A stretch of 64,000 bases of DNA from Balanoglossus misakiensis (lineage: Eukaryota > Animalia > Hemichordata): NCBI GenBank assembly GCA_040954595.2, contig CM082585.2:12266341-12330340 (forward strand). Reading direction: 5' to 3'. The notes under the pieces were generated by a model. That model saw only the letters and a program-made list of their open reading frames with translations. It had not been told where the DNA came from and made no database searches. The position numbers were made by a program, and so were the translations under genes. Shown here piece by piece: positions 22,043 through 61,908 of this stretch (position 1 is the stretch's first letter; every line of letters starts with the position of its first letter).

Positions 22043-26939
<4,897 letters not shown>

Positions 26940-35465: not shown

Positions 35466-36184
35466 TTTTAAACCGGTTCTTTCTCTTATTACTTTGTCAA
35501 CAACAGACCCGCGAAAGAAGCACGTTTTGCAGACGTCGGAATCAGCTGTTTGAAATCTCGCGGGGTTTATCTCGCGAGAAACTATGTAGCCAAGCCGAGA
35601 GGGTGACTGTTTCGGCGCGTGCGGCTTGAAGTACAGGCGCGTGCTAATACACATTGTTATTTAAATTCTAGCGACTGCTTCAGGTGAAAATTACACATAA
35701 TTAACACATTTCGTGAACTCTTGCACTTTCTTACAACAATTTGCATCTAACTGTTTTGATAACAAAGGGCAAAACAGTTATCTTCGAACTACTTTTTTTT
35801 CTGCGGAGAGATATCTTGATATTGTGAATCGTTTTGGGGATTTTCTGGAGTAATCCTCCGCGCTACTCGGTGAGGTCATCGTCGTTTACATACAGTAGAC
35901 GATATATTGTTGTCCTATTGAATGAGATCAGAGCTGTATTTTAGAGAGCGAAGTCCAACTCTTTGTGCCAGGGTCCGCTGTTATATCTAGCGTTCATGCG
36001 TGTAGGAAGTGTCGTATGATAACCGGATGTTTTCATTCATTTTTATAAGACCAAGGATGATGTGGAACACGAAGCGGACTTTATGGTGAAAAGGAACCCG
36101 TTGAAAACTTCAACCATTCGCCGATCGACCGTGGGAAACATATGACGATAATTTTGTGATAAATATCCTGTAAATACCAATAAT
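35466..36184. promoter_or_regulatory. Bidirectional CpG-rich promoter between CLNS1A and TMEM164
   Basis: Start codons diverge about 720 bp apart; local CpG enrichment; perfect palindrome TCTCGCGAGA at 35570-35579 with a near-copy ATCTCGCGGG at 35555-35564. Confidence 0.65.
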
Positions 36185-39100
36185 ATGTCAAGTTACAGTT
36201 GGCAAAATATGTTCGACTGGGCCTACGGTGGAGTGGATCCAAAATTCGTCGGTAACGGAGGTCCTGAGTGTGCAAATTTCATGGGACTTTGGCAAAGAGT
36301 GATCGAAACTGTGGTCTTCACGTCGATTGCTATTCTCGAAATTTACTACTCATGGGGACGTTTAAAAATCCCCGAAGTCCCAAAGACCGAGCCATCAGAT
36401 CGCATTGGGAAAAGGATTTTATTAGTTATTCTTTGTGTGACATTTGGCATAGAAATTGGTTTTAAATTCGCCACCAGAACCGTCATATATCTGTTGAATC
36501 CATGTCATCTTTTAACAGTGATTCAGGTGAGTGCTTGCTGATTGACGTACACACTGTTTACGAGCAGAAAAATATCGAAGTTATATGATTTTTTTTGCGT
36601 TTATGGTAGTTATATAGGCAGCTGCGCCGAATCACGACTTATATATTGTGTGCGACATGTGGGTGATTACTCAGCTCAGATCAGCTGATCATGCCATAGG
36701 TGCTAAAGGTAACACATATGCAGGTACGAAGGGACCCGCCTCTAGGCAGACTCACACGCGCCAAGCGAGGTATCAACCCCGTTTGGCGACACGTACGCGA
36801 CATGTAAATATACATAACGGCGTTATTAATCGTGTCAAAGTTTATCTTTACTGTGTTCTGACCATTGTTTCTTCCCTCAAAATTGTACTGTACAATTTAA
36901 TCATTTAAGTGGTTGGTCCAAAAGAATTGTCCGGTTTTCAAACATTGTTGCCCACGTGATTAGCAATGCAGAGATGGACAAGACTGTAGTGTATTAGTAA
37001 TGAACAACACCACCTATTGTCTATTACATAACACCTTTCACATGTATAGACACCAATTTTAAAGCAGTAGCTTCTCAATTTTTTTTACTTTTGCATTGTA
37101 CAGTCATATGTTTGGTTCTCAGGTTAACTTATTTATATTTGTTGGTAGGGTCTACTGGACTTTTGGAAAAAGCACATGACATGTACATAAATGATGAACA
37201 TAAATGTTGCACATGTCATGTGCAGTTCAGTTGATCCTACCCTCTCCTAACCCTTTCACCACCATGGTTTGGTCCAAAACCATTGTTTTCGTCTGTGAAG
37301 TTGGACATCTATTTGCTATCATCACATCCTGTATGGACCAAAGGTTTGCAACTGAAAATGCACATTCTTGGCAATTGAATTGAGCGTGTGACCATTTTGA
37401 TAAGAATGATTAATCTGTCCACACCCCCTTCCTCTCAATCACTGCCATCATCAATCATAAAAGTATGGCATTGGGTAGCCATCAAAGGTTGCCCTTGATT
37501 ATATCATATGACACTATTGACAGTTGTCATGTATTGTGGCCAATGCAGCAAGCATGTTTGTATCAGAATATACACTGAATTCAGAATTTTAATGTTTTGA
37601 AAAAGATAACACACCCCTTTTAAAATGTCCTTTGCATTGATTTTCTGTATGTATGGTTTATTCTCATATAGCTTGAGCAAGTGGACGTGTCCACTATGTT
37701 ATATTGGGAGGGCAGTTTTGAATTATTAGGGATAGAATTTCTCTCTTTTGTGCAGCACTATTTATTAATATAATCCTAACACATCTGGTGCATGAATGGT
37801 CGACCAGGGGATTACGGACGTCATACCTGTATATATCCAGCAGCAATTGTCTAGAAATGGTTACAAGAGTAGTGGAAATGAGAAGACAGTAGAATCACAT
37901 GGTTGGAAGTTAATACTCTTAATAAATGCTGTTTTTGAGGAAGAGTACATTTATAGCTTGGTAAATAGGCCAGGCATATTTTACTGAAATATCCTGTTGT
38001 AAATTGATACTGCCAAGAGTTATTGTTAAATCAATGAAGTCTTGTAAATGCAGCATGTGTGATAGAAGATTTGTTGATGTGGTTTGTGACAGGCTTATAT
38101 TGAGTGGACCTGCTAATCAGTATATGCGTATCACATGTCCTGTTACATTCTCATGGATCTCACAGTGAAAGTGATCTTTTTATTCAAAAATACCATCTGT
38201 CGGTTCTCAGGATTTGATCTCAGAAAAGGAAGAGGCAAAACCTGAAATTGGAATGGACCATTAGTATACAAACAAAACCATGTGTGTAAACAAACGTAAA
38301 AACAGACCCATTCCTGTTTGGTTGATCCATGTCTTTTTGTTTGTATCACTATCACATGACTTCTTTAACATGCAATGCATACAGTATTCCATAGAACGCT
38401 CAGTGGTATGTGTGTGTGACATTTTATAAGGCTTCTCTGATGCTGCCTGTAGCTTTACTCTGCCAAAATTTGGTCGATGCCATTATTTTTGAATGCCATG
38501 GGTGTATAATGTCATAAATACAGGGTAACAAATGTGGATCACCATTTCATTCTTCAGCATATTTTAGTTGTTCACAGATGCAGTAGTAACACTGACATTT
38601 CCTTGTAGAACAAGAATATTACTACAAATATTGAGAACATTTTTGTGACGTGTTTTACTGCAGCAAAACACAGATGTTGCAAATTAAAGCTAAGATCCGG
38701 CATGGCTAAACGTTTGCATAATAAAATGGCACTTTTAATTCCCTTTTTGTCACAATTCTAACGGGAAAGCAGAAACCAATAATACCATTTTAGTCTGGCA
38801 GTCGCTATTTGCATAATTGATTGCCCATGTGGTTTACAATATGTTAACTGAAGACATTTGCATAACATTTGCTGTAAAATTTAAAAAATACCCACACAAC
38901 TATTTCTCCTGGTAGCTGTATGGTACTGGTAGTTATTTTTAAGCATGATATTGCAATGCAAAGATGGGAGTGTGTGAATAAAAGCAGATGTCTTGAATAT
39001 CTCCAACTTCAAAACCCTTTATCTCCCTCCCCCTCCCCCTCCCCCTGTATACATGTAGAGGTCTAGCATAAACTCAGTTATGTTTGTGCTGTGGGAGGAG

Positions 39101-42100
39101 AAATATGAAATGTTTCTGATGATGCAGGCAACATATGTTTTTATACAATTTATTGAGACATTTTACTGCACAGTTTACCTGTCTACTTGGTGATTCAGTC
39201 CTGCCTCCCCTCAATAAAAAGACCACACCCTGCAACACAGCTGTCACTTTCTGTCTATTTTCAGCATCACCGAAACCTGTCCAACCATTGCATTAGAAAG
39301 GGGGCATTGACTGCCTCTGCAGCTTGTCTGTCTGTCTGATGAATAAAGAGCCACAGTTTGTATTATAATTTATGGTTATTTTTCAGTATTTTATTTGTTA
39401 TATGTACAAATGTATCAACTACAGCTGTCCATCCACAGAATATGCAATAGAAATGTACTAGTATGCTTGTGTCAGACTATCTCAGGTATTGATTTCATAA
39501 TAGGAATACAGATATGATTTATGTGTTTCGTAGGAACTGAAGCGATACAAGTTGTACATTTTTACAAAGTGATAAAAGCAAGCGTAACTGTTGGCTGATA
39601 TTTTACCAGAGAGTATTGGTAAGAAAATTGAGTTTATTGTGGGTTGGTATAAAAATAGATTTTATGGTCTTTTGACTATTAAAGTGTGCCAAGATTTGTA
39701 TCATTGCTTCAGTTGTTATAAATGCCAGCATCTGTGTAAATGCACTACAGAAACAACACTAGTAGTGGTGTGATAGGCTGTAGAGATTATTTTGGAAATC
39801 TAATTGGTGACGATTGTGTTTTGACAAATCTCCTTGCATCTTAGTTGGAGACCAACAGCTTCAATCTATATATTGCCCCAGGGTACAAATTCTCCTGGCA
39901 ATAAAAAGACAGGTTATAAGGACTTTGATTTTTGGTGGGTGTACTTTGCTCTGAAGCTGTTTACAGACGTTAACTGTAATCTTGTTGGTCATTGTCTGTC
40001 TGTGTCAACAAACTTTTGCTGGGGTTCTTTTAATTTTTGGCCATTGGTATATTGTAATGCATTGCACATAAACATTCAGATTCTGGATGTCACCTTGTAC
40101 GTGCATATACTTACATGTACATGTAAATGCAACCAAGCCAGTTATTGCCAGCCTTCCTTCTAAAAAGTATTTCTCATGTTTAGTGATAACAATGATATGA
40201 TGAATTGAGAGATCTAATTGATGTCAGATGAACATATTACTGGAATACACAGGGGTTAATATACTTCAATTGCACCGAGCTCAGTAGGACATTTATCTGA
40301 CGTGTAAATTATTTTATTTCCATTACCAGTAGGGCATTTACATTTCTGTTGCAGTGTTAATTTATTTTATTCTCATTGTCAAAGTAACAAGTACGGCTAA
40401 ATAATAACTGAATAATGGCACTACATCACTTGCCATGCTGTTAAAATAATTACAAAATTGATCATGAAATATTCATGCAATGTACATGCACACTGCAGAG
40501 TCTGATTATTTTGTGTGTATGTTTCAAACCACTCAGCCAACACCCCCGGAGGCTTATTTCATTAAGCGAGGTACAGTACACTCTCAGTTAAATTACTGCC
40601 AGTTCCTCTCAATTCTAACACTCACACAGCCGTTATATTAACCCTTTTACCACTATGGTCCAGTCCAAATCCTTTGTTTTTCTATGGGAAGGTTGGACCT
40701 CTATAGAGGGAACTGGGGGTGGAAGGGATAAAAGAGTCTGTGACTCTCATGTGTGAGCAGTTTGAACTTGAAATCTGTCAGGTGTCACGGGTACATGTAT
40801 GTCGCAGTGAACTTTGAAGAAATTAAGATGCAGCATTGTATTTCACTGATCCTCAGGTTCTGTCATTATTGATGGGTTTGTGCTGGAGACATGTAAATGG
40901 AGCCTCATCCTTCTTAAAAATTGATGAAATGTAGATTTTAGTGGCCATGAGAAATGCAAATACTAGATTCGCCCACACAGGCAAAATTTAAAAAAAAGAA
41001 ATTAAGTAGAAAGATTGTATGTGATGTGATAGTCTAGCAGTGTGCGTGTATGCAGAGACTGACAGGGTGTATTTGCATACCTGTTGTCAACCAGCAGGCT
41101 GATCAGTATCAACAGTTGCCCATCATGCATTCTGCCAACATACATATGACAGTAAAATCTGTCTAATCTGGAAACCTGTCTACCCTGACACATTTTTCTG
41201 TCCCTTAGACATAGAGAGCCACATATTAATTTAAAGAACCTCTATAAACCGGACACCTCTGCAAACCAAACAATTTAGAGTGAAGTATAATGGACTTGCC
41301 TACTATTCATCCAATATGTCGACATGCTCAGAGCCATTGTTCATACATCATTGTATTTTTAGAATAACCCTAGATAATATTTTACAGTCTCTAGATTAAT
41401 AGTGAGAGTAATTCCTGGAACAAAAGGACAGATTGAATCGGAAACTTAGAAGTTAGATATCCTCAGGGTTGCAATGATGTACGATGTAATGTTGAATTTC
41501 CTTCCACTCTATTTTGCCATTAGTTCTTCCAATGTATTGACATGTATATATGATCAGTTTCTGAAAAGCACCATATTCAGTTTCATTTCATTCAGTGTTT
41601 GTTATTCACCTCATACCATTGCCACTCAAACAGTTGTGTAGAGCATATTAGAAAAGTCGTACAGTGATGTAAGGTAGCTTGTGAGGCTTGTGTGGGTATT
41701 TCTATAAAAATTCCAAAAATTACTGCGATCTTTGAAATCGAGGTTCGCTAAATTGATAAAGAAGTCAGTGATCCACTCTAGATACGCTGGAAATAATCTC
41801 TGTTGCTGATCAATGAATCCTTGAAAATCCTTAAAATAGATCCCAGTATGAATCACCTTCAGGTAGCTTTACTTTTATGGAGTTTTTATTTTAGTTGCAG
41901 GGGGGTGGGGAGGGTGGAGGCTCAGCTGTACATGAATTCACACATCACAGGTCTTGATAATGATAGTTTTTTAATTGCCCCAAAAAGGCAGATCAGAGTC
42001 TATATTCAGAGTTGTCATCCCCAAAGATTGCCTATTTATTGGCAAGAATTTGGATGCATACAATGGAGTAGCAATTACACAGTCAACAGCTCTCAGTGTG

Positions 42101-45100
42101 TATAGCTTCATTTTCCTGTTAGCCTATTCAGAGTCAGCTGATGTGTTAAATTAAAATCTGAAGGTCGATCGCCAAGCGTGATGGCATCTATTCACAACCA
42201 GCCACTTCCTTGTCAATGATGATCACATTCAGGGGATAATTTCCGCTGAGGTCTGAGTTGTCAAGAAGTTTCATTTCTCATTCTAGCTGCCTCTGTCAAA
42301 GTTGGAAGGGATAAAGCTCAACAGCTGTCCACACTTTGGTTCTTTCTAGTTTCATTTTAATGGCAGAATGCTGAACAAGGGGTTTTCCAAATCTCCTATT
42401 TCCTGTATTCTCATTTGCCAAACTGCAGCAGCGAGCAACCAGAGGTTCATTCTATCATAGACAGCAGAGGGGAAGAAAAACCAATGGGCATGAGTTACTA
42501 ATTATGTACACACAACTAATGCCATGCACATGACTTCTTTGTAAGTACACAGGTTATTGGGGGGAAAAACACATTGAATAACTACTAATATTACAGTAAT
42601 TACAAAAATGAAAATCTACTAAGAAGTATAACAGTACGTAATAGCTATCACAAGACATTTATGATAGAAATGATTAGTTTCAATATACCGTACATGCACT
42701 AATGCCAAAGGTTATTTGAAATATCAAAGTATTTATTAAACTATTTCAAGGGTCAAGTAGTGACTTCCTCTGTACTGATCCATGTACCATATCAAGAGAT
42801 AATTCAGTTCTGTTTATTTATGCCATGGTCACTCAGCATTTGATGGCCACTGGGAGTGACTGTTTATGCCTAATTGATCATTCTGACATAGCTATAGTTC
42901 TGGTATGGACCCACGGAACTGTACATGTATAACCAAGTGTCCAGCCACATTTTTCATTGGCTGATCAGGTACAGGTGCAACATGGGTCAAGGGAATACAC
43001 TTTTTGTAAACACCAAAATGGATAAGCTTAACAAGGATACAATAGTTGATCTGCCTTCAGAGATACAAGGCCATAACTCATAAGAAAACCACAGGGGCAT
43101 CAAATGTATAAAACAAACAAAGAAATAAAATAACCACAAACAGAAGAATGACTGATATGCTTCTTTGCGTTAATTAATGCTTCCACTATATATAAAATAT
43201 ATCACAATAGACCACTTGCATTTCTTTTCAAGACCACCTGTATCAATACTGATTCACATCTCAAGATGGCTATGACTACAGCCTCAAACATATATTGCTT
43301 TCAGAGACTATCCAATCTAACTCTTTTCTTAATTCTTTTCTTTGTTCTTCCATTGCAGATTTATCTATTAGCAGCACAACCCAACAAAGCAGTACTAATT
43401 ATATTTCGCTTGCATCTATCCATGTTAAGTGGTGCCCTATTAGCTATCCTATTTCCTGTTGTCAATACAAGATTGGTAAGTGACACTTTATGTATTTGTG
43501 ATTATTAGCCTTTGAATTAATCCCTTTCGTTGTACTCCAGCCATGATTAGCCATCAGCCATGGTTAGCCATCAGATCTCCAGCCATGATTAGCCGTCAGC
43601 CATGATTAGCCGTCAGATCTCCAGCCATGATTAGCCGTCAGCCATGATTAGCCGTCAGATCTCCAGCCATGATTAGCCGTCAGATCTCCAGCCATGGTTA
43701 GCCGTCAGATCTCCAGCCATGATTAGCCATCAGATCTCCAGCCATGATTAGCCGTCAGCCAAGATTAGCTGTCAGATCTCCAGCCATGATTAGCCGTCAG
43801 ATCTCCAGCCATGATTAGCCGTCAGCCATGATTAGCCGTCAGATGTCCAGCCATGATTAGCCGTCAGATCTCCAGCCATGATTAGCCATCAGCCATGATT
43901 AGCCGTTAGATCTCCAGCCATGATTAGCCGTCAGCCATGATTAGCCGTCAGATCTCCAGCCATGATTAGCCGTCAGATCTCCAGCCATGACTAGCCGTCA
44001 GATCTCCAGCCATGATTAGCCATCAGCCATGATTAGCCGTAAGATCTCCAGCCATGATTAGCCGTCAGATGTCCAGCCATGATTAGCCGTCAGATCTCCA
44101 GCCATGATTAGCCATCAGCCATGATTAGCCGTCAGATCTCCAGCCATGATTAGCCGTCAGCCATGATTAGCCGTCAGATCTCCAGCCATGATTAGCCGTC
44201 AGATCTCCAGCCATGATTAGCCATCAGCCATGATTAGCCGTAAGATCTCCAGCCATGATTAGCCGTCAGCCATGATTAGCCGTCAGATCTCCAGCCATGA
44301 TTAGCCGTCAGATCTCCAGCCATGACTAGCCGTCAGATCTCCAGCCATGATTAGCCATCAGCCATGATTAGCCGTAAGATCTCCAGCCATGATTAGCCGT
44401 CAGATCTCCAGCCATGATTAGCCGTCAGATCTCCAGCCATGATTAGCCATCAGCCATGATTAGCCGTCAGATCTCCAGCCATGATTAGCCGTCAGCCATG
44501 ATTAGCCGTCAGATCTCCAGCCATGATTAGCCGTCAGATCTCCAGCCATGGTTAGCCGTCAGATCTCCAGCCATGATTAGCCATCAGATCTCCAGCCATG
44601 ATTAGCCGTCAGCCAAGATTAGCTGTCAGATCTCCAGCCATGATTAGCCGTCAGATCTCCAGCCATGATTAGCCGTCAGCCATGATTAGCCGTCAGATGT
44701 CCAGCCATGATTAGCCGTCAGATCTCCAGCCATGATTAGCCATCAGCCATGATTAGCCGTCAGATCTCCAGCCATGATTAGCCGTCAGCCATGATTAGCC
44801 GTCAGATCTCCAGCCATGATTAGCCGTCAGATCTCCAGCCATGACTAGCCGTCAGATCTCCAGCCATGATTAGCCATCAGCCATGATTAGCCGTAAGATC
44901 TCCAGCCATGATTAGCCGTCAGATCTCCAGCCATGATTAGCCGTCAGATCTCCAGCCATGATTAGCCGTCAGATCTCCAGCCATGATTAGCCGTCAGCCA
45001 TGATTAGCCGTCAGATCTCCAGCCATGATTAGCCGTCAGATCTCCAGCCATGATTAGCCATCAGCCATGATTAGCCGTAAGATCTCCAGCCATGATTAGC

Positions 45101-48100
45101 CGTCAGATCTCCAGCCATGGAGAACACCTGAATAGTTATTAATAACAAAAAAAGTGTATCAGAAGTTAGCAGCTGATATCTCTGCCACATACTTCAGCAT
45201 TTCTATTCTAAGTTCTACTAAAAATATAACGGCAACATATAGCCATTAAGAGGATGTGATGGCTGAAGACATTGCAAGACAGAAACTGCATTTAGACAGC
45301 CCTGCTGTAATTCAATTTATCTCTAGTAGTACTGTGGGAAATTTCAGTTAATGAAAAAGGTGCCTGATACAGCACCTCAAGAGGTTTGACACAAAATTTT
45401 CCCAAAGCGATCGAGAGTAACTTATTTTGTAGCTCTGATACTGGTTCATGCGTTTCCATGGATACTCGCCACCAGTAATAGATTGAGAATCAGACAAGTG
45501 CGTCTAACGCTGTATTTCTTGTGGAAGGACTGACACACATTAACATAGATGTAGATGATATCACCACTCTGTACTTTCCAATACTCAGAGCCTCGCCATA
45601 GAAACACAAGTCACTGAAAGTATCTAGTTTTCCCTCCTTGAACCCAAGATGAACACATCAGCCATTTTGTGAGTTTGCATTCAATTTGAGTGATAGAGAG
45701 CATTTGATTGACATGCAGTGTTCTGTATTCATGGAGATATGTTTTCATTAGTGTCACGTCCAACTGCAGTGCGTGGTTTATTCAGCTCTGCATACACTCA
45801 CCATTATTTGCTTTGTGTTGTCTCCAGAATTTGAATGCACTAATGACACCCTCTTCACTGTTGCTTTCTACCTGCAAACCAGTATTGCAATCTGCAGATT
45901 TTTGTTGTTGCAATAAACACAATTGTTCTGATTGCTTCTAAAAGTTAGTCAACTCCGGTCATTTGCAAACAAAAATGGAAAAGTGCATTCTGCAAATACA
46001 GTGCAAGAAAATACTGCTATAGTATTACTATTAGCCTGGGTAAACTTTGTAATGATTAATCTGTATAATAATTCTTCTTTCTCTCTATTTGCAAACACAG
46101 CTGCCATTTGAAACAGAAGTATACTGGGTCCAACATATCCTGATTTATATAATAATTCCACCTTATCTAATGAAATGTGGAGGTAAGAATCATACAATGT
46201 TCAGATCTGTCAAAATGATAACATCCTCTTTTCTATGCATGCGTCTACATCTAGCTTGATCCCAAATTAACTTTCCCTTTTTTTCTCCCGCTGTCTTTTG
46301 CTTGTGCTTTCAATTTTGACAAAAATGTTGCTATTAAATCGATCACTCCTGGGATTTGGTTTTATGAATTGATTGTATCTTTCATTCACAGGTCAGATCA
46401 TACTCATAAATTTCTTCTGTGTGTTTTGTATTCAGGAGATCTGCCAGAATGATATTCAGTTGGTTGTCATATTTATCATTAGGTTTAGTTATTTCAGGGT
46501 TGCTATGTGTGCTTTATAGCATATATTACATGGTATTTTATAGAAACTTAGGATGGTTTTAAACTTGCATAGCTGAACTCTGAGTACAAGGACAGTTCAG
46601 CTTTGGTTGGGCGGTGTGTGTGTGTGTGTGTGTTACATTTAAGACCAACCAGAGACTCCTTTGCCATGGAGACTGTCAACCAAAATGGAATACTGACAGT
46701 TTCCATGGCTACATGTACTCCCATCTCTCATCGCACCACTTTCATATTGTCCTTCCTTCCCAGCTGTTGCAGTGAAAAGAACATGTAAAAAAACAATGGT
46801 TTTTATCATTGGTTCAAGCATGCTGACTACAGCCATCATTGTTAAATAGCTATCTATTGTTGTTGTGAATTCACACAGCTGTGTCAGTCAAATTTAAATT
46901 GATATTTTATATTTGTAGCCGCAATATATAAGAGACATTTTTCCCAACTGTGTAGTAATATTGAATCAGTCATTATATGGTACTACTGTTTTCTCCAATT
47001 ACAAAGAAAATAGTTATCGTTTGCTTTGTTTTACTGTTACCGGGGCTATTTCAAATTTTCTTCCACAACATTCAACAAATGTGGTGAGGGTTGACCTTTA
47101 TGCCTGAGATAACATGATCAAATCAGGAGCTGTCAAATGTATTGCTCTTTACAAAAGGTGAACACTATCTTGGCACGAATTAAAATTTTAGATCTCATTG
47201 ACAGCCTTTGTACACGCTGACTGGTGTCTTTCCTTGCTCATATTACTGACATAAGTTTAAAACATGTGGCCACATTCATGATCACATTTCCCTGATATGT
47301 GAATCCAAATATAGATTTACTGTAAAAATTGTCTAAATATATCTTCAGTGCTTGAATGCAGTTTGCAGTATCAGAATAAAATGTAACCTTGAACCATACC
47401 AAGTTACTTTTCAGTAATGCTAACGATTTAAGACATCTTGGTGTTTGACTGATATCTCCTGTTGTGCCGTGCGATCTTTAAGGTCAAAGAGATTTTCCAT
47501 GGATTTCACTTTAACTCCATGGAGCATCTCCGTAATGTCTAAAAAGGACATAAATTTATCTCTTTGTGAGAGGATTCCTTAAATCATACATATTGATTAA
47601 TCCACCCTAAAAAATAAAATAGCAAAAGAGAAGCATAAATTTTAGCTTTTAAAATCTCCTACACAACTTACCATTAACTGTATGCTTTTCATATTTTTTT
47701 ACATGGACGAATAATTCATTTTCCTTTTACTACAATACTTGATCAAATTAGGTTTAGTACATGTGTACACATGCTGTCATGCTAAACACAATAATTCATA
47801 AAAATAATGCTTTAATTTTTATTGGAAGATTGTTGCAACACACAGCTAATTAATTGGCCAAATGTGATGTGCTGAATTATTAATGATGCTGAAGTAATAA
47901 ATGTTATCTTTTATATTTGTGTCTCGACAAGCAACATTTTTTTCATATAAAATGTTCAAGTAATGTCAGTGAACAGTATTTGAAGAAATAAGACCATATT
48001 TTATTGAAATTCTCATTCACGTGATACATATTTCATTTGGCTTTTAATATCCTATAAATTCGCTGTGATATTGTTATAAATTATGTCAAATCTAATACTC

Positions 48101-50517
48101 AAGTTTAGTTTTCTATTTTCCACAGATTTTGAAAAGCATTCTCAATAATAGGTGAAAGCTATTGTTTGAATACAACCTGAGTCAATTAAAAGCATATTGT
48201 GTGAATAGGCACCACAGAAGAATACTTGTTTCTACATGTATACTCACTCCTGTATTTGTTTGTATGTACTGAATTCATGTGACTTTTCAGCAAGCATTTT
48301 CCACAGAACACAGCACATGACTTTTTATTCCAGAGTAAACCTATTATATGGATTTTTCACCTGGGGAAAAATAAATCAATGAAGTATAGAGAATGTTGAA
48401 AGACTATTAAATAATGTATTTTCAGTTTAAAATATCTTTTAAAGTGCTACCATGATAATGTGTTTTCCCTGAAGGTATAATGATAAAATATTTGTATCGT
48501 ACTGCCTCTGCCAGTGTTTGTATGATTTGACTTCAGTTTCTGAAAGTGGCACTCCCATTTTGCTGAATATGTTCAATCTTTCATCCCCCATTTATCTCTG
48601 TAGAGGTCCAATTTTACATCTGGACTGCGAGCCAATTTTCCACAATTTTAATTGAAAGGATACTGAACTCTCACAACTATACATAAATATTTAAAAAATG
48701 GACGTGCCACTTGAAAATTAGGTGTATAATAATATTAATGGTAGTTTTCCAGTTCATTTTCTGTAAAAATCTATTCTTTGTGTTCTTGCTCTCCATCCAA
48801 TCCTTTCCTTTGCCCATCCTTATTCCTTTAATGTTACCCTTCAGTTATTACATGTATTAGTTTACCCGTGCAAGTCTGCTTCTGTGCGTTTGTTTGCAGG
48901 TGCTTACACCCCCGAACCACTAACCGACGCTTGGTGGGTGGTCTGGAATCTCGGTGTGCTGTTTGCCTATCATTTTGTCCCATTGCATGCCTTAGCCGTG
49001 GTAAGTAAAAAAAGAAATTCAGTGACCCAGGGGAACTGTCATGTCACCTGACATTAAATAAAAATGGTGATGTCACGTGACTGCAGCAGTTGTCACCTGA
49101 TCTCTACATCCTTGCTCATCAGTTTCATTTCTCTCTTCTCTCTTTCTCTTGTCCCTCTGTTTCAACTCACAGGTGTTTTTGTGCTTGAGTCTTCAAGTGA
49201 CTTTCATTGGTACATCTTAACAATTGGCTTCCTTATCTGGTATTGTTTTGTTCCATTACAGTTGCTTGGTATGGTAAGCAAAACCATATCTACATTCTGC
49301 CTTTTTCTCTCATCCCAATCACACTTTGGTACCATCAGCCACTTGGCATCTTCCAACTTTACGCTGGATGGTGTTGCCACAGCAACACTCTCCAGCTTTG
49401 CCTCATCTGTAACAAATGTCCTGAAGCAACCGGGGAAAGTGGTTCTGTGAAATCCACAGTGTCATCACGCCATCATTCCCAATCAAAACAGCCACAATCA
49501 AATTTCATGTTCTGTTTATTAAAAGCCATTATCTATGTTGTCAAAACTGAGTGAGAAGTCTTTTAAAAATGGCAGCTCTAGCATTCATGTTTTCGAGATT
49601 CTTAAGTTAAAACAGTTGACAGTGTGGTTTCCATCAACTATTAATCATTCTGACATTATAAAAAATGAATTAGTTGCAAGGTTAAATGGCAATTAAGACG
49701 GAAACTTCAAAGAGGCCCGTCTGGGCTCATTAATTTCCGAAATAACACCTGTCATTTATGTTTTTCATTTCGGCAATCATCTTTGTGATTAATATTGGAC
49801 AGATCCAAGCTTGAATTTTCATCTCCTTTGAAGATTTCAATAATTGCAGAAATCCATTCTTTTGGCTGTTTGGAAATTCTGAATTATCCAGCTCACATCT
49901 TTTGTTAGATCAGCTTTCCATCACAACAACAGACTGCATGCTGTCTGTCTGCTGGTCCATATCTACATGTTATTACATGTTTCATGACGCATTTCTTTTC
50001 GTTTTTTGCATGACTATTTCTTTTGCCAGAACAAACAAAAACTCACCATGTTTTAATAAGTGTAGAGACTTTATCACATGTCAAGTATAGTCATGTGCAA
50101 TCAACCCAACATCCTTTCAGGATGATCTGAAATTCATCTATGACATGCTATTGAAGAAAGTATAATCCCGCAAAAGACTTGTGCTTTCATTCTCTTTATG
50201 TTGGCCCTCTCTGATCTGCGCGTACAGTGCATGACTAAATGATCTATCTGTATTATACAGAGCCTGAAGAACACACATGCGTTTCACTAAAATTGAAATG
50301 TTTTTCATCCTCTGTGCAGGCATTGGAAGTCAACTTAAACAACATGCTGTGTCCAGCACCTAGTGATCCCTTCTACGGCAGGTGGTATCGCGTGGCAGCA
50401 TTCACACACCAACATGCCATGATTCCACTGCACCACAAACTGTACACTGTCATCGTCAAGATATTTCTGCCAGTGTCCAGGTTAGAAGATGAAAAGCCAT
50501 TTGACAAAAAAGGTTGA
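36185..50517 (+). CDS. TMEM164: Transmembrane protein 164 (membrane acyltransferase family) with two alternative versions of exon 4
   Basis: Exons 36185-36526, 43359-43475, 46101-46182, 48900-49000 (4a) or 49173-49273 (4b), 50320-50517. [42 protein letters not shown] (catalytic Cys motif), [51 protein letters not shown]. Probable long 3' UTR to AATAAA 54928. Confidence 0.96.
37248..37310. mobile_element. piggyBac-type MITE, degenerate partial copy
   Basis: TAACCCTTTCACCACCATGGTTTGGTCCAAAACCATTGTTTTC matches the reverse complement of the right end of the 28968 element. Confidence 0.55.
40638..40731. mobile_element. piggyBac-type MITE, full-length inverted copy
   Basis: TTAA-CCCTTTTACC...GGACCTCTATAGAGGGAACTGGGGGTGGAAGGG-ATAA is the reverse complement of the 28968 copy with substitutions. 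Confidence 0.7.
43535..45119. repeat. Minisatellite of interspersed 25-bp (CTCCAGCCATGATTAGCCGTCAGAT) and 17-bp (CAGCCATGATTAGCCGT) units in TMEM164 intron 2
   Basis: Directly visible tandem array of about 1.58 kb with low divergence. Confidence 0.97.
48900..49000 (+). CDS. TMEM164: TMEM164 alternative exon 4a ([34 protein letters not shown])
   Basis: tgtttgcag| 101 nt |gtaagt; phase 1 in, phase 0 out. Confidence 0.9.
49173..49273 (+). CDS. TMEM164: TMEM164 alternative exon 4b ([34 protein letters not shown])
   Basis: Long pyrimidine tract, cacag| 101 nt |gtaagc; same length and phases as 4a, and aligns with it without gaps. Confidence 0.85.
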
Positions 50518-52870
50518 TTGAGTGAATACATGTATTTCTAGCTGATCTGTTTTCAATTTAATTCTGCTGCTGATTTCAGGGAAAGGTCTTTGCTGTGTGC
50601 AATAGATAAAACATACAGCATAAGAGATGTTTTGTTTACAATATTAATTTCAGATTCAGATTGCTTAGGAAATGAATTTAGGATGGTCTGTCATAGAGAT
50701 AGCAAAGATAATTCAGTCATTCATGCAGGAAGTTTTATTTTGGAATACAATGCAAAACTGAAAGAGTTACAGTATTAATTTTGATTTTGTTTTATGCATC
50801 GACTGCAGTTTCTTGTTGTGCTCGCCACAAAATCCTGTTGAAATTTGCAAAGTACTTATGTTTATCTCGTCAACACTATGGTAGCATCAATAACATTTAC
50901 TTGGTGTAGGTTACTAGATATAACTGTGTTGACGAGTAAAGACTGGACGATTCAACATGATCCTGGGGTGACAACATGAAACTTCAATTTGCACAAAACA
51001 CTGAATAGTTATCCCAGGTGGCAGTTATTCCCCATTTTCACATTCTCCATTCACATAGTGGAATAATCCCGTTGTTTTCTAAAGTGTGGTTGGACCTATA
51101 CACTTGGAAATAGGGGTGAAAGGATTAAGAAAGAGATAGAACTTAGTTTTACATTCCACAATGTCTTGCAAATTTTTTAGGAATGAACAATTTACTCTCA
51201 TGCATATATTTCACAATCGTACCCTATATTTGATCATAGCTTTAATACATTCAGTTTTAAATATCAAATGCACTGCCCCTAATATTGAAATTTCTCCTGT
51301 TCCAGGGTAGATACTTTGGCTGAGACAAGTGACATGTCTTATGCAATGTATTATATGTAATCAGCATTGGAAAGCAAATCCATTTTCTGTAAATAGGAAT
51401 TTAAATGCTTCTTCAAACATTGGAGAATTGGACGGATTATATAGCAGGTGTTAGAAACATCTCTTTTCATGCATGTGACACCGTCAACGTAATTAATCTG
51501 AATTTCAACTGCCGTTGCACACTCTAGAGTTGATCAACAAATTTCTTTAATTCAATATTCTAAAGGTGTTCAAATTGAATTTTTAAAACACTATTCGGAA
51601 AAGAGGAGAAAGTTGAAGTTCAAACAATGAATTGGCCCAACATTTTCTGTCTGATTGGTTATTTCTTAATTGATAATATCATTTATTCATATTGGAACAG
51701 ACATCTAGCTTGGATTGTCTGGGTAGCCAATTTTTGCTGCTGTACCTCTAGCCAGGCCATGATAATCCAGATTTCACTTTGAAGTACATGTACATGTATG
51801 TACTTCCGCCAGCCGCAAAACTCTAGAGCTGCAGGTTTGATAGTATGGTAACTTGTAACTCATGAATTTTAAATGAGAATTTAATGTCAGAAACATGTTC
51901 TATTCAGAGATGCAGGATTTATGATGTAACTATGACTTGAACAGCACCATCTTGATTAAGAGTAGTGATACTTGCTGTCAATATAATACAATTGGAGATA
52001 TCAAAACTCCAGCATTTTAATCCAAGAAGCCTTGCAATATTCAACACCAGGTGGCGCTGCTCACCACTTGCGGTCTGACACACCATTGCGATACAATATA
52101 ATGAGTTTTGACATGATTTCTGAATATCTATGCAACATTCATTGGTGTCCAGAACATGATAATTCAAATCTTGAGAGTAAATATTGCAATATAGGATGTT
52201 TATGAATGTATAAAATTTGGATATATTTCTTCCTTTTATGACAATGCTCTCATTGTGACAATTTTAAAGTTTCCCAAGTGTGCTCAATGTTGACATTTCA
52301 AGTTATACAGATAAATGGTTAATATTTTCAAGTGAATTATATGTATTAATTAATAATAATCACCTTGTCCAAGTACGCTTCATATTGAAGTTGGTTAACA
52401 GTTTTTCCCACGTATTGTTTTAGACATCTCACAGCTATGTAGCTGCTCATGCCGTGGTAATTATAACGATAGACTAATAAGTATTTGTACTGCATGTCTC
52501 CAACAGTGTTTTTTTACACCTGGCCACGAGGATTCTTGCAGAATCCAACTGACACTCTTTGACACGAAAAGCTGAGATAATCAGTCTTGCTATGTTTATC
52601 AAGGTTGTTAGAGGTTTTTCGCAATGGTAAAGACAGTGGCATTTTGTCAACTTTTGTATTTATTCATTTTGAATTTCAGCTACATATAGATTGAAAGCTG
52701 GAATGTAGTTACTTATATTTGGGGAGGATGTATTGTCAGGGTGAGTAAAGGAAACTATCAGGGTCATTTTTGATGTAAGTTGTACATAGATACTGTCACA
52801 TCTTCTGACAGGTGTGGTAATGTTTGCTGAGTATATGATACTAGTAACATGTAGATATGGCAATTTCGCC

Positions 52871-55243: not shown

Positions 55244-56842
55244 TTATACTGTATCTGTGACATATTCAGCCATAACGTAACTTGGAAGTCCACCAACTGA
55301 GGTTTCAATGTAGTTGTCAACATCTGAAAGGGTACCAACATGAGAATCTGTCAATTTGTATCCAACCTTTTGAAGCCAAGAGAAAAATTGTTTCAAGTCA
55401 ACTCCAACTTCTTTTTGGGTCGTGTATTTCATCACGACAAAATGGATGTATTTTGGCGGATGCTTTCCTTCCAAAATGTTTTTCGCTCCATAAATGATCA
55501 AAGGGGCATACAACTCCACATCAACATTCAGTAGCCATATTTTCTTGTCTGGTATGACATCATCAAGCCTTTTCATATCCACCTTGTGTCTGGTTACATC
55601 ACAATCCAAATTGAAAGTACCTGAAAATAAATACAGGCAATACATAATTTACATCAGTTAAAGGGTGCACAATATGATACAGTGTGATACAAAGTCCAAC
55701 CTGTCTATAGTGGCCAGTCAAGGGAGTTTCCTAAGCTGGCCATTGTTTTCATTGTCAAACTTACCCGCCTCAATCCGTGCCATGGCTTGATTGGCTGTTC
55801 CTACTGACATACAATACTGTGAAGTTTCGTTTCCAAGCGCAATGTTGAAAGTGTCAATTGACTTCTCATCCATTTTGTTCAAGAAGATGCTTTCTTTCAA
55901 CAGTGCATAGTTGTGAGTCAGCGGTTCTATTGCAATCGTCTTGTATCCAGATGCAACCATGGACAGCGCCATAAAACCTGGTAAAAAGTACATTCAAAGG
56001 CAATGTTAGGAATAAGATATAGATGTAATGTACAAACAAATAAATTTGTAGATCATATTTCTAAGAGCCAGTTGTTCATGTGGAATGGATTGGAAATGCT
56101 GGAGACACACTATTGTGAAAAGCTGACAACTTTTCAAGAGTTACACTCCAATCAATTGGCATTGTGTGTACCTATGTGAGCTCCTGTCTCCACAAAATAA
56201 TAGTCATCCGGGGCCTTTTCCATGTACATCAATAGTTTGCTGACTTTCTCTCCTTCCCAGAAACCAGTGGAAAGTATCACTTTGCTTGCAGCTTGGTCTT
56301 TGTCTGGTGGATGCAGGGACATATAAAAACTGGGAATCCTGAAATGTTAGACAATGAAGCTGTAATGTATACACATGTATATTACCTGGTTCCACCTTCA
56401 GTGCAAACTATTCAGAACTAACTTTTTTGAAATGCTTCAAGCATAGAAATGTTTGAAGGTTAGAGTGAAACCGGTAAGAAAGATTTTGTACTTCGGCCTA
56501 CCTTTTTACACCTCTTGTAATAGCGATGATTAGAGGATTTCTGTTGGTATGTGAAACATGCTCCTCAAGAAAATCTCTTATTCCAGGAAGATCCACGGGA
56601 CAGCTTGGGCATTTCGGACAATCATGTACGCATTTCGGACAGGCTGGACAGTCCAGGGAATCTTCCCGACTGACCTTTACATGTTTCGTTCTCTCTTTAG
56701 CCTCTGCAAAATTTGTTTTTTGTTCCACAACCTGCGTCTCACCAAACTGCAATAAAGATGTACCAATGAAAAGTTGGAAAAGTAAAATGGCGCCGCCACA
56801 CACCATCCACAGCAAAACCATCATATTCAATCGGCACCTCAT
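55244..56842 (-). CDS. FkbM-family (Methyltransf_21-like) SAM-dependent methyltransferase, type II membrane protein
   Basis: Minus-strand exons 56842-56502, 56338-56172, 55977-55765, 55620-55244. N-terminal signal anchor, CPxC-repeat stem, TGFWE, motif I FVETGAHIGFMAL, IAIEP, FNIALG, RLDDVI...LLNVDVE, GY near the C-terminus. Confidence 0.85.
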
Positions 56843-57780
56843 GGTTTCATTTCGTCGCTAAAACGATCCCTTAAAATCGTAAACACGTGACAAAAATATC
56901 CACAATTTCTTCAAGCTTTGTACAGTGCTTTCTTTGACAGGCTGGCAAAATCGAAACATTCGCTTGTCACTAACCATTTCTTTAAGGCTTACATGAAAAA
57001 TCGATACTGGGTCATTCAAAGAGTTCCTCAACTTGGTCGATAACTTTTAATACTAAAACATTTATTTGCATCAGGACTGTCTATGGCTCATTTTAAAAAC
57101 AATTTGAAACAAAGCGCACACATAGATTTTATTTTATTTTTCTTTATTTCCCCCAATGAACGCTCATAACCCTTTTTATATTTCGGTAAATCAAGGGTCC
57201 AGAACTTTTTAAAACTCGACTGTATAAGTCCGATTAGGCCTATTTAGGCCAATTATTGAAGACCATGACCAGATGCACAACGGATCCAGATGGCTTTTCA
57301 CATGGATAATAGTAATACTCCGTAGGCCAACAGTATCGAATTTAGCAAAAACTAGTGGTATTGCCTTCTTTAGAACAAGTTTGTAAATTTGTTCCTAGGC
57401 CAAAGTTACCATCACCGTAAAAGAACAAACCAAACCTAAAGTTTCATTTAAAAAAATAGGCCTATAAAATGTTATGAGCTCTGGTGTTATCAGCTATCAC
57501 TTTCACTGCTGACGTTTTGGTTTATTCTCGTCTGTTTTCTTTTGACTTTTATATCTGAAAGCGATAATCGATGCTAAAACAGAACTGAAGTTCGAACTTC
57601 GAGATTATCCAGTCCATCTATCATTGCGCAGCCGCAACATCACGTGACTGTACCCTTTGACCCCATTAACCGGAACTAGCGGTCGACGGTCGTCAACGTT
57701 CACACACGTGCAGTGTATGTGTACGTACGTGTTCATGTAGTAGCGTTACTGAAATTTACACGAGCGTCCAGGTAGTAATC

Positions 57781-60700
57781 ATGGCATCACCAGATATTGT
57801 CAAGGGCCTCAAAATCGCCGCTGGCACTGCAGCTACCGCTGGAGTTCTCAACTACATCTACCCCTACTGGAGATATGATTTTCGTGTCCTGAATTTTGGG
57901 CGTCGCGTGATGTCAACATTCCGGGAGAATTTGGGGAAGAGGCATTTTGTGGTCGATATATTCATGGAGCACGCAAAATCGCAGCCGTACAAGCCGTTTA
58001 TTATACACAACAACACTATATATACCTACAGGGACATTGATATCATGTCTGACAAGTTCGCCAACTATGTTCGTCAACAGGGACTCAAGCTTGGCGACAG
58101 CGTCGCTCTGTTTATGTACAATGAACCAGCGTATGTGTGGATGAGTTTCGGCCTTGCGAAGTTAGGGATTGGCTGCGCTTACATCAACTACAACCTGCGG
58201 GGAGAGTCAGTTACACACTGTCTTGAAGTGTGTGGAGCCAAGTTAATGATCGTTGGACACGGTGAGGATATAATAGTTTTCTTTTCTTTTGATTCAACTT
58301 TGTTTTGAGTTCTTGAGACCAGGGGATCAAGCACTGATTTGGTAGTGCAATGTGGCACGGGCCCTTACCTAGCTAGTAAGTTTGTTTACCTTTCCATAGA
58401 CCCACTTTAGCCCTTTGCACTTTTCAGTCTATTAAAAGGATTATCTGATTCTGAGGCTATTGGACGAGATGTAGGTCAATTTGCTCTGTGTGTCGATCGT
58501 TACCGGCCGGCGGCCACGCCCCCAACCGGTTGGAGGATCAGTCGGTAAAAAATTTACAGCCCAAGCCAAAGTAAACCAATAAACTTTTTAAAGATGTATT
58601 GTGATATGAACTTAACCACAATTTGTCAATTTCCAGATTGTTTATCTCATTTCTTGGAGGTAGCACCAGTCTCCATGGTCAGATCGTCTATGCGCTTCGT
58701 TCATGAACTTGAACCACGTCACAGTTAAGGGACTGTGACCACGTCAATCAAAGATCGCGTGTTTTTTTCCCGGGGGTCAACCCCTATTGTTGATCGACAT
58801 TTACATAGGTCATGGTTACAAAACCAGGATGGACTGCAAAATTATTGCAGATGCGCGAAACTTGTGTGTACAAAAATGACCTGATAGAACTGCACTTCAA
58901 CTTTGTTTTGAAAACACTGGAAATAAAATTTAATTTGTTGACACTATGTCAAATAATGCTCATGGCTCTCTGAGTATTAAGTGTTGGCAGTTGGATGATG
59001 GCTTTAAAAGTCTTTCCAAACATTTTGACAAACAATTTTCTCATTTTAAATTTTTATAGAAGATGAATTGCAACGTGCAGCACAAGACATGTCTCTGGAA
59101 CTAAGAGAGAGAAACATTGACGTCTGGAGTTTCCATGGAGACAAGCAAGGATTCTTTAAGGATGTTCGAGATGAAGTGATGCAATCTTCTGAGAACCCCA
59201 TTCCAAAAGAAGTTCGAAGTGCTGTCGATGAAAACTCCATTTCAGCGTTTATTTTCACATCTGGAACAACAGGTAATGATCAAACTTTATTGCCACATAT
59301 TTTTGTTAGAAATAATTAGGCCAAAATAAGTAAACCCATACACTCATTGATTTCCAAGAAAAACACACACATACTTTTCTTGGGAAAACACCCAGTGTAA
59401 TTCAAAATTGTCTGACAAATTATTTTCTGTTTTTGTGTTTTTTTTCACAGGTCACCCAAAGGCATCAAAAATTTCCCATTTTCGTCACTTGCTTGCAAGT
59501 TTTGTTATGCTTGCCCAGAATGTAACATCTGATGATCGGTTGTACATTTCTCTTCCACTCTACCATAGTTCTGGATCCATGATTGGTCTTCCCATGGCCA
59601 TATCACTTGGTATGTATCAAGTAAATTTTTTTTCTAACAGTACAAATAATATGTTACCCATTTCTTGTCCCAAAAATAGAAATTTTGACGACCCCCATAC
59701 CTCCAGAAGTACGAGGACGTAAGGTCATGTAAGGGTCATGAAAGTGACCTACTGCTATGTGTTGCTGCTTACTAGCAATTCACTTGTCTCTCATGTAGGA
59801 ATGACTGTGATTTTAGCGAAGAAGTTTTCAGTTCACCATTTTTTGGATGATTGTCGCCGTCACAATGCAACTGTTATCCTGTACATTGGAGAAGTGTGTC
59901 GATACTTGCTAACATTACCAGAGGTAAGATTTTATGGCACTGAAGTATTTTTAGCTTTAATTTGGTGTTTAAACCAACGCAGCATATGAGATGCAGTTGT
60001 CATCCAACATATGTACAGACATGTACATACATTGTCATAGTAACAGCACATGTCCGCCATCTTGTTCTCTGAAACAGCTTGTCAGATGGCTTTGAAACTG
60101 TGTGTAGTAAAATGGTTTGTTTTCTACAAACTACTAGTATATTCAACAAACAATGGATTTTCATATGCCATATTCTCTATATTTTTATTGATATTCTTTC
60201 ATTCAGACACCAGAAGACAAGAGGCACTCAGTGCGAATAGCAATTGGAAATGGACTTCGTCCGGATATTTGGTCAACGTTCAAGAACCGATTTGGAATTG
60301 CACAAATCTCTGAATTTTATGGTGCAACAGAGGGACCTTTTGTTTCAATAAACAATGACAGTAGAACCGGGGCTGTTGGAAAGTTTTCACCTCTTCTCAA
60401 GGTAAGTTCACTTTGTTTGAAGTCCCAGTTACTCTAACTTTTGGCTGAGTACTCGTGTATGTTTGACACCGTTTGAATCTCTGTGATATGTTTTAACTAA
60501 ATCAGAAATAAAATCTGTTTGCTTTAAAGCGAATACTTGGATTTGAACTGATCAAATATGATTATGAAACGGCTCAACCCAAACGAAGCAAAGATGGCAG
60601 GTGCATTCCGGTCCAGAAAGGTAAGTTGAATTATGAATAATGAATATAAATGTAAATTTAGGAATTTGATAATAAAGAAAGCATGAAATAGTTTGGAAGA

Positions 60701-61908
60701 TTGGAATTTGGAACAAATTCTATTATATCCATGTAATGTGATTGATATAACCATTTGAAGGTCTGATTAGGAATTTTACTGCGTGAACATTTGAACATTT
60801 CTCAGAGAACAGAAATTGAAGAAGTTTATTGTTTGATATTCTTAGTAACTATTGTGGGAACTGTTATGTCAGTGACTATGTCATCTTAATAATTGCAGGT
60901 GAAGTGGGATTACTCATTGTTGCCATCAATGAAAGAGCTCGTTTTGATGGTTATAGTGGAGACAGAAAGTTGACCGAGAAGAAAATTGTTCGCAATGCTT
61001 TTCAAGATGGTGATGCTTTTGTAAACATGGGTGACTTGATGATTCTGGATAAGAATTACTACATGTATTTCGTGGACAGACTTGGTGATACATTCAGGTA
61101 AAAAATTCTATTGTCAAACAAAATATCTACAGGCGAACCTGTCTACAGTGCCCAGTCAAGGGACTTTCATAAACAGGCTTTATAGACAGGTGGCCTTTGT
61201 TTACAGGTCAGTTAATGTAAACTGTAAACTGCACAGGGACTGTAACATACTGGCCACTATATAGAGGTGGAAACTAACACAGGTTTGCCTTGTATTTGCT
61301 TTATCTTTTCTGCTCTCATGTAGATGGAAGGGTGAAAATGTTGCCACCACAGAAGTTGCTGAAATCATTGGAATGCACCCACCAATCAAGGAAGCCAATG
61401 TCTATGGAGTCCAAATCCCAGGTACTGTAGGCCAGTTTTTTTTTTTTTTTTTTGGGGGGGGGGGGGGCTAGTTTGGTGCAGTGGTGGGGTGGGGTGGATT
61501 CTATATGGTAGGGGATGTGGTAGCAAATTATTTTTTGGATTGTGCGCCTTTATTTTAACGTACACTGTCAAAATCTCAAATCCTTTTCTCTTTACTTCAG
61601 GTCAAGATGGCCGGGCAGGTATGGCAGCTTTGGTCCTCAGAGATGGATTGCAATTTTTTCCTGATGAGTTCTACAACCATGTCGTCCAACATCTACCCTT
61701 GTATGCTTGTCCCCGCTTTCTACGGATGATGAAAACGTTGGAAACAACTGGTACCTACAAGTATAAGAAAGGAGATCTCGTCAAACAAGGCTTCAATCCA
61801 AATTACATATCAGAAAAAATGTACTACTTGGACATCACACATGGTGCATACAAGCCTTTAGACAATGCTGCTTACTTATATGTAGTGGCAGGCAAAGCTA
61901 AGTTGTAA
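57781..61908 (+). CDS. SLC27A2: Very-long-chain acyl-CoA synthetase / fatty acid transport protein (SLC27A2/A6-like) with C-terminal PTS1
   Basis: Exons 57781-58261, 59060-59272, 59451-59609, 59799-59923, 60207-60401, 60530-60620, 60899-61097, 61324-61421, 61601-61908. AMP-binding [49 protein letters not shown] signature [33 protein letters not shown]; ends AKL*. Exact vertebrate paralog orthology cannot be resolved. Confidence 0.93.
61128..61294. mobile_element. TA-flanked Tc1/pogo (Tigger-like) MITE in an SLC27 intron
   Basis: TA-CAGGCGAACCTGT...ACAGGTTTGCCTTG-TA imperfect TIRs; the left about 55 bp recur at 55688-55740 in an FkbM-gene intron. Confidence 0.55.

What the first reader, a model, noticed from the sequence alone, without database searches (positions are those of the whole stretch)
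48900..49273. TMEM164 has tandem-duplicated, mutually exclusive exons encoding two versions of one transmembrane segment
Seen: two 101-nt exons (48900-49000 and 49173-49273), 172 nt apart, each with canonical splice sites and the same phases. They align without gaps ([34 protein letters not shown] vs [34 protein letters not shown]; shared G, E, D, W, G, Y-x-FVPL). Since 101 is not a multiple of 3, including both or neither frameshifts exon 5, so exactly one must be used. Known: mammalian TMEM164 is a Cys/His acyltransferase that makes polyunsaturated ether phospholipids linked to ferroptosis. Exon 4a resembles the vertebrate GAYTPEPL...YHF segment at its start; 4b has YHF changed to YCF but keeps a vertebrate-like LQ-x-LG end. 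Inference: both exons are old and under selection, and a splice switch could change lipid substrate preference by tissue. I do not know of a described mutually exclusive switch in this family.
Basis: partly seen in the sequence, partly recalled or inferred. Interest (0 to 1): 0.8.

Follow-up and report, generated by a model that had tools for sequence, protein, structure and literature searches.

The report
Twin pocket-helix exons in acorn-worm TMEM164
An acorn worm's gene for the membrane-lipid enzyme TMEM164 carries two old, intact copies of the exon for one membrane helix, only one of which fits the reading frame at a time, so the animal likely makes two versions of the enzyme whose fatty-acid pockets are predicted to differ.

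Summary
Observation confirmed. The window is an enteropneust (acorn worm; exon 1 is 87% identical to Ptychodera flava). Its five-exon TMEM164 has two 101-nt exons, 4a and 4b, with AG/GTAAG sites. Either alone gives a 279-residue protein; both or neither break the frame. 4b is only 49/101 nt like 4a, yet keeps all three invariant family residues; 0 of 5,667 stop-free neutral simulations reached its profile score. So 4b was kept by selection for most of its history. On the human cryo-EM structure the exon encodes a helix holding acyl-pocket residues M216, F217, F221 and H220. 4b changes F217 to Ile and the near-invariant H220 to Cys; the catalytic residues sit in shared exons. Not shown: any transcript with 4b. 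No RNA run was listed, no relative's genome was reachable, and the three annotated hemichordate proteins are all 4a-type. Tissue control and the exclusion mechanism are unresolved; splicing-motif and RNA-pairing leads were weak after controls. This is a new instance of a known class (tandem-duplicated mutually exclusive exons, as in ACOX1 and ACSL6), not found described for TMEM164. The scan's index held no earlier TMEM164 finding.

The parts
36185..36526 (+). TMEM164 coding exon 1 (114 aa; holds the equivalents of E106, C123, H124)
   Evidence: 87% to Ptychodera flava P0001; residues found
43359..43475 (+). coding exon 2 (39 aa; M152, G155)
46101..46182 (+). coding exon 3 (82 nt, ends phase 1; Y177, H181)
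48900..49000 (+). exon 4a, the family-typical copy (85% to Ptychodera's annotated exon); loop plus inferred TM6; contains one UGCAUG at 48984
49001..49172 (+). 172-nt intron between the copies: predicted hairpin within 49030-49100 (1 of 200 shuffles as stable), branch-point candidates at 49051, 49100, 49118, 49127, CU-rich tract and 48-nt AG-free zone before 4b
49173..49273 (+). exon 4b, the diverged copy; F217 to Ile, H220 to Cys (human numbering); intact splice sites and frame
49280..49480 (+). intron stretch after 4b: strong predicted hairpin 49363-49398 (0 of 200 shuffles as stable), 12 YCAY motifs; regulatory role untested
50320..50517 (+). last coding exon 5 (65 aa plus stop; N236, M238, P241, A256); Pfam TMEM164 above cut-off

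Best explanation
Exons 4a and 4b are an old tandem duplicate of one TMEM164 exon and are likely spliced either-or, which would give two 279-residue enzymes with the same catalytic residues but a different sixth membrane helix, predicted to reshape the acyl-chain pocket. Shown: anatomy, frame logic, catalytic residues all in shared exons, and a 4b sequence far better kept than neutral decay allows. Inferred from the human structure: the exon carries M216, F217, F221 (pocket for the polyunsaturated chain) and H220 (wall of the pocket); 4b keeps Leu at 216 and Phe at 221, swaps F217 for Ile and H220 for Cys, so it most likely changes which acyl chain or lyso-lipid is preferred rather than switching the enzyme off. 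Inferred, weakly: 4a is the default exon and 4b a minor, tissue-restricted one; exclusion probably comes from regulated splice-site competition, with double-inclusion RNA perhaps removed by nonsense-mediated decay (stop 53 nt before the last junction, borderline for the recalled 50-55 nt rule). About 0.75 that 4b is a live alternative exon; about 0.45 that it measurably shifts lipid preference.
For: Splice sites, phases and frames. 4b keeps G196, E201 and W208; E201 and W208 are present in 193 of 193 family segments (W208 was part of the extraction filter) and G196 in 29 of 29 representatives; it keeps 8 of the 10 most conserved columns, 4a keeps 9. Profile score 49.0, within the leave-one-out range of 29 natural segments (44-105) and close to Saccoglossus (50.1). 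Neutral decay from 7 starting sequences, 4,000 runs each: 5,667 of 28,000 stayed stop-free and 0 of those reached 49.0 (best 47.9). pS 0.80 against pN 0.43; codon positions 1/2/3 identical at 19/19/12 of 34. 7 of the 12 residues shared by 4a and 4b fall in the 10 conserved columns, p 0.01. No gaps, no charged residue in the helix part. W211 is shared by 4a and all 3 hemichordate proteins and by 0 of 29 others, while 4b has the common Leu, hinting the copy predates the enteropneust families. Pocket residues from PMC12830759 section 6 mapped by the 9LW1 alignment.
Against: No transcript evidence for 4b. The annotated proteins of Ptychodera, Glandiceps and Saccoglossus are single-member clusters with a 4a-type segment and no isoform label; searches with 4b found no matching protein (0 of 9 candidates at E 10; one unrelated repeat protein). 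4b scores second lowest against the 29 natural segments and loses H220 (His in 191 of 193). H220A had no effect on ferroptosis resistance, and Saccoglossus has Ile at 217 in its annotated protein, so the pocket changes may be mild. The simulation cannot exclude long selection followed by recent loss. The 34-column tree is unresolved.
Confidence: 0.7

Rival explanations
1. 4b was a functional alternative exon for a long time but has recently fallen silent; only 4a is now spliced.
For: No 4b isoform among three annotated hemichordates; low-end profile score and loss of H220. The neutral test only rejects decay since the duplication.
Against: Donor, acceptor, long pyrimidine tract (82% over 57 nt, the richest of the gene's five acceptors) and frame are all intact; its 5 residues unseen among the 29 representatives compare with 4 for 4a and 0-6 for natural segments.
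Confidence: 0.15
2. 4b is used, but the isoform is a dampened or inactive enzyme, or the switch mainly tunes TMEM164 dose through unproductive double-inclusion RNA.
For: Loss of near-invariant H220 and change of the loop motif at 199-203; the enzyme is a dimer; the double-inclusion stop lies 53 nt before the last junction.
Against: All five residues needed for activity in human tests (E106, C123, G155, Y177, H181) are in shared exons and H220A was tolerated; a poison exon would not need to keep the family profile; L003 and L005 carry Met at 220 in otherwise whole proteins.
Confidence: 0.1
3. The second exon is an assembly artefact (two haplotypes in a row), a neutral pseudo-exon from the start, or a remnant of a whole-gene duplicate.
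For: Hemichordate genomes are highly heterozygous (PMC11175523 passage); no reads could be laid on the locus.
Against: 49% nucleotide identity and flanks alike at only 20 and 22 of 60 nt, splice signals included are far below allele level; no second copy of any other exon in the window; 0 of 5,667 neutral runs match 4b.
Confidence: 0.05

Closest known systems
Tandem exon duplication-derived substitutions / homologous mutually exclusive exons (PMC8373072 supplement searched; PMC9741552 passages; PMC7954323 abstract)
   Same: Two consecutive homologous exons of one length and phase; conserved structural residues kept, variable residues near a functional site; class is enriched in membrane proteins and often tissue-specific.
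   Different: TMEM164 is not in the curated human list (0 hits in the supplement; 236 events); here transcript proof is lacking.
ACOX1 and ACSL6 internal exon swaps (listed in the PMC8373072 supplement)
   Same: Lipid-handling enzymes with an internal duplicated exon; their effect on fatty-acyl preference is recalled, not from a call.
   Different: Different folds; those events are dated to Chordata and proteomically supported; here the swapped piece is an inferred transmembrane helix of an intramembrane, CoA-independent acyltransferase.
Human TMEM164 (PDB 9LW1; PMC12830759 sections 6 and 9; bioRxiv 10.1101/2022.07.06.498872 passages)
   Same: Cys/His acyltransferase; all named catalytic and metal residues are present; Ptychodera model matches 9LW1 at E 3e-18.
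   Different: Single version of this exon in every annotated relative examined; 4b differs at F217 and H220.
OGDH exons 4a/4b (PMC7969005 passages)
   Same: Enzyme with a duplicated exon pair and a short intervening intron; best branch-point match here lies 51 nt from the 4a donor, at the ~50-nt steric threshold.
   Different: OGDH has a long AG-free tract after its distant branch points; here AGs follow and the AG-free zone is only 48 nt, so steric exclusion is doubtful.

Membership tests
Homologous mutually exclusive exons (tandem duplicate) | Two consecutive homologous exons, same phases, canonical splice sites | tested here: met
Homologous mutually exclusive exons (tandem duplicate) | Either exon alone keeps the frame; both or neither do not | tested here: met
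Homologous mutually exclusive exons (tandem duplicate) | Both copies shaped by purifying selection | tested here: met
   4a 85% to Ptychodera; 4b 0 of 5,667 neutral runs, pN below pS; recent loss not excluded
Homologous mutually exclusive exons (tandem duplicate) | Transcripts with each exon, rarely both | not testable with these tools
Homologous mutually exclusive exons (tandem duplicate) | Second copy conserved in related genomes | tested here: inconclusive
   no hemichordate genomic DNA reachable; annotated proteins 4a-type only
TMEM164 acyltransferases (PF14808) | Family profile, fold and Cys/His dyad with E106, H124, G155, Y177, N236 | tested here: met
   (Pfam hit on exon 5 only, 1 of 4 exons scanned; fold from the Ptychodera orthologue)
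TMEM164 acyltransferases (PF14808) | CoA-independent transfer of polyunsaturated acyl chains to lyso-ether lipids | not testable with these tools
   needs an enzyme assay
Sterically enforced pairs (OGDH type) | Branch point within ~50 nt of the upstream donor, followed by a long AG-free tract | tested here: inconclusive
   CTGAC at 51 nt but AG-free zone 48 nt and three more candidates 45-72 nt from the acceptor; needs lariat mapping
U12/U2 hybrid-enforced pairs | Minor-spliceosome splice site on one copy | tested here: not met
   both donors GTAAG, both acceptors CAG with pyrimidine tracts

The most novel reading that the evidence does not exclude
Acorn worms have, since before their families split (over 370 million years by the date quoted in PMC11175523), used a neural or otherwise tissue-specific exon switch to rebuild the acyl pocket of TMEM164, placing a second cysteine beside the metal/thioester site and changing which polyunsaturated ether lipids are made: a natural, splice-encoded specificity variant of a ferroptosis enzyme, overlooked by annotation.
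Probability: 0.25. Interest if true: 0.65.

Novelty: new member of a known kind. Interest (0 to 1): 0.42.

Why it matters
TMEM164's selectivity for polyunsaturated chains is attributed to a handful of pocket residues, and F217 and F221 were not among the mutants tested in the sections read of the structure paper. A selected natural swap of exactly the helix that carries them offers a ready-made test of what sets acyl preference, portable to the human enzyme as F217I/H220C or as an exon chimera. It would also be the first splice switch found in this family and a case of membrane-lipid composition set by alternative splicing in an invertebrate deuterostome. The class of event is well known and the lineage is narrow, which limits the surprise.

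Tried and rejected
RNA: no RNA holder listed for window 43300-52500; this is no evidence either way, and no reads could be laid. No own genome held. Relatives' DNA: 21 metagenome loci, none hemichordate-like by identity (26-61%); the 4 intron-bearing ones that reach exon 4 (L007, L008, L016, L020) show one copy, the last two near contig ends. 4b protein searches blank or spurious; weak, because a 4b isoform would cluster with its 4a twin and 34-40 residues score poorly. 15 clusters listed: no swapped exon-4 version appeared among the extracted segments. Long-range RNA pairing: the stretch 49403-49443 is the best partner of both acceptors, but 26 and 31 of 500 shuffles do as well singly, 17 of 1,500 jointly, and 17 of 418 real window tiles; region chosen after seeing the fold; not accepted. 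Selector-docking pairing between the inter-exon intron and the intron after 4b: no better than shuffles (436 and 232 of 500). Whole region fold z -1.65. Nova-type YCAY cluster after 4b: top 0.5% of window tiles, but 72 of 1,000 dinucleotide shuffles reach it and constitutive exon 2 has 9; lead only. Tree of 29 segments: 17 of 26 inner branches open, cannot date the copy; no clade test run. Dating by A/G228 dropped, the site toggles (12 vs 17 of 29). The 4b isoform itself was not folded; only the Ptychodera 4a-type protein (pLDDT 70). Literature: 'TMEM164' + 'mutually exclusive exon' 0 papers; TMEM164 + alternative splicing + isoform 8 papers, none on this by title or abstract start; two searches for ACSL6/ACOX1 specificity gave 0.

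Full report
Observation. The gene has coding exons at 36185-36526, 43359-43475, 46101-46182, 4a or 4b, and 50320-50517. With either copy the frame is open and the protein is 279 residues, the length of the Ptychodera and Glandiceps proteins. With both, a stop falls at 49218-49220; with neither, exon 5 is read out of frame. The copies share 49 of 101 bases and 12 of 34 residues; their flanks share 20 and 22 of 60 bases. No other exon of the gene is doubled in the window.

Organism and gene. Exon 1 is 87% identical to Ptychodera flava TMEM164, 78% to Glandiceps, 74% to Saccoglossus, 63% to a crinoid and about 50% to vertebrates. The window is thus an acorn worm, probably a ptychoderid other than P. 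flava (inference). Exon 5 passes the Pfam TMEM164 cut-off; the other three exons scanned gave no TMEM164 hit on their own. The Ptychodera orthologue aligns with human TMEM164 (9LW1) at E 1e-92 and its model matches that structure alone.

Is 4b alive? I pulled 193 exon-4 segments by pattern from the proteins and loci held (mostly vertebrate; records without the pattern were dropped, number not counted) and reduced the non-hemichordate ones to 29 representatives. 4b keeps 8 of the 10 columns conserved at 85% or more; 4a keeps 9. Its profile score is 49.0 against 69.5 for 4a, 50.1 for Saccoglossus and 44-105 for natural segments left out in turn. Neutral substitution from seven starting sequences down to 4b's identity left 5,667 of 28,000 runs stop-free, and none of these reached 49.0; the best, from the family majority sequence, was 47.9. 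Synonymous difference between the copies (0.80) exceeds non-synonymous (0.43). This rejects decay since duplication; it does not reject recent silencing. At several sites 4b has the common family residue where 4a is derived (V197, F206, L211, Q225); W211 is shared by 4a and all three hemichordate proteins and by none of 29 others, which hints at a duplication before the enteropneust families split. One site is thin evidence and the tree is unresolved. PMC11175523 (passages) quotes over 370 million years for the Ptychoderidae-Spengelidae split.

What counts against. The annotated proteins of the three hemichordates are single-member clusters with a 4a-type segment. Two searches with 4b found no relative. 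No transcript or related genome could be examined. A minor or tissue-limited exon could be missed by annotation, but that is an assumption.

What the swap changes. In the Ptychodera model the exon covers a loop and helices 191-206 and 208-214, the sixth of seven membrane helices by my count against the paper's numbering (inference). PMC12830759 (sections 6 and 9 read whole, further passages; supplements not opened) names F217 and F221 among residues holding the sn-2 polyunsaturated chain, adds M216 for the acyl-Cys123 intermediate, and places H220 in an inhibitor pocket; H220A lowered inhibitor binding but left ferroptosis resistance intact. By the alignment, 4a reads L216 F217 H220 F221 and 4b reads L216 I217 C220 F221. 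His is at 220 in 191 of 193 segments, Met in two (L003, L005); Phe is at 217 in 172, Ile in one, Saccoglossus. The residues needed for activity (E106, C123, G155, Y177, H181) and the remaining pocket residues lie in shared exons (Cys/His dyad also in bioRxiv 10.1101/2022.07.06.498872, passages). The most likely effect is therefore a changed pocket shape and lipid preference on an intact catalytic core. This is inferred and untested.

How exclusion might work. Both copies use major-spliceosome sites. The best branch-point match lies 51 nt from the 4a donor, at the ~50-nt steric threshold given in PMC7969005 (passages), but AGs follow it and three other candidates lie nearer the acceptor. Hairpins flank 4b on both sides (1 and 0 of 200 shuffles as stable; third and fourth lowest z in a scan of introns 3-4). 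4b's acceptor has the most CU-rich tract of the gene (17 TCT/CTC words against 2-8), 4a holds a UGCAUG, and 12 YCAY follow 4b. That pattern would suit PTBP, Rbfox and Nova control (roles of PTBP and Rbfox recalled; downstream YCAY enhancers in a tunicate, PMC12445529 passages), but the YCAY excess is not significant against dinucleotide shuffles (72 of 1,000) and the long-range pairings failed their controls. I commit to regulated competition with 4a as default, backed by decay of double-inclusion RNA, at low confidence.

Comparison and novelty. The event fits the known class of tandem-duplicated mutually exclusive exons, whose variable residues cluster near functional sites (PMC7954323, abstract) and which are mostly tissue-specific (PMC9741552, passages). 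TMEM164 is absent from the curated human list, where ACOX1 and ACSL6 stand (PMC8373072 supplement). Searches for TMEM164 with mutually exclusive exon or alternative splicing found no description; subscription papers are not covered. The scan's index returned nothing for this protein or place and only duplicated exons of other genes by words. Verdict: real feature, probably a live exon switch in a pocket-lining helix, new for this family, of a known kind; interest 0.42.

Noticed in passing
window 24750-25055 (+), 34026-35660 (-), 36185-50517 (+): An AMMECR1 exon (PF01871) lies about 11 kb upstream of TMEM164, with a pICln/Voldacs gene (PF03517) between them. AMMECR1 and TMEM164 are neighbours on human Xq23 (recalled), so this may be a deuterostome-old linkage.
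   Followed up: partly
window 49058-49450 (+): The 4b frame stays open for 58 codons past its donor; the extension shows no likeness to exon 5. Probably chance, but an intron-read-through end is possible.
   Followed up: no
window 46663-46709: Near-perfect 16-bp inverted repeat in intron 3 (z -7.6); could be a transposon remnant or an RNA editing substrate.
   Followed up: no
L003, L005 (L004 same peptide as L003): Unnamed intronless TMEM164 sequences with Met in place of the near-invariant H220, while the close relative L002 keeps His.
   Followed up: partly
window 18835-20234 (+) and 57670-61908 (+): A PLP-dependent enzyme (PF00291, below cut-off) resembling D-cysteine desulfhydrase/ACC deaminase (name recalled), and an AMP-binding, fatty-acid transport protein-like gene downstream of TMEM164.
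   Followed up: no
window 55244-56857 (-): Exons that look like an FkbM-type methyltransferase with an N-terminal membrane anchor (by eye; no Pfam hit for the one exon scanned).
   Followed up: no
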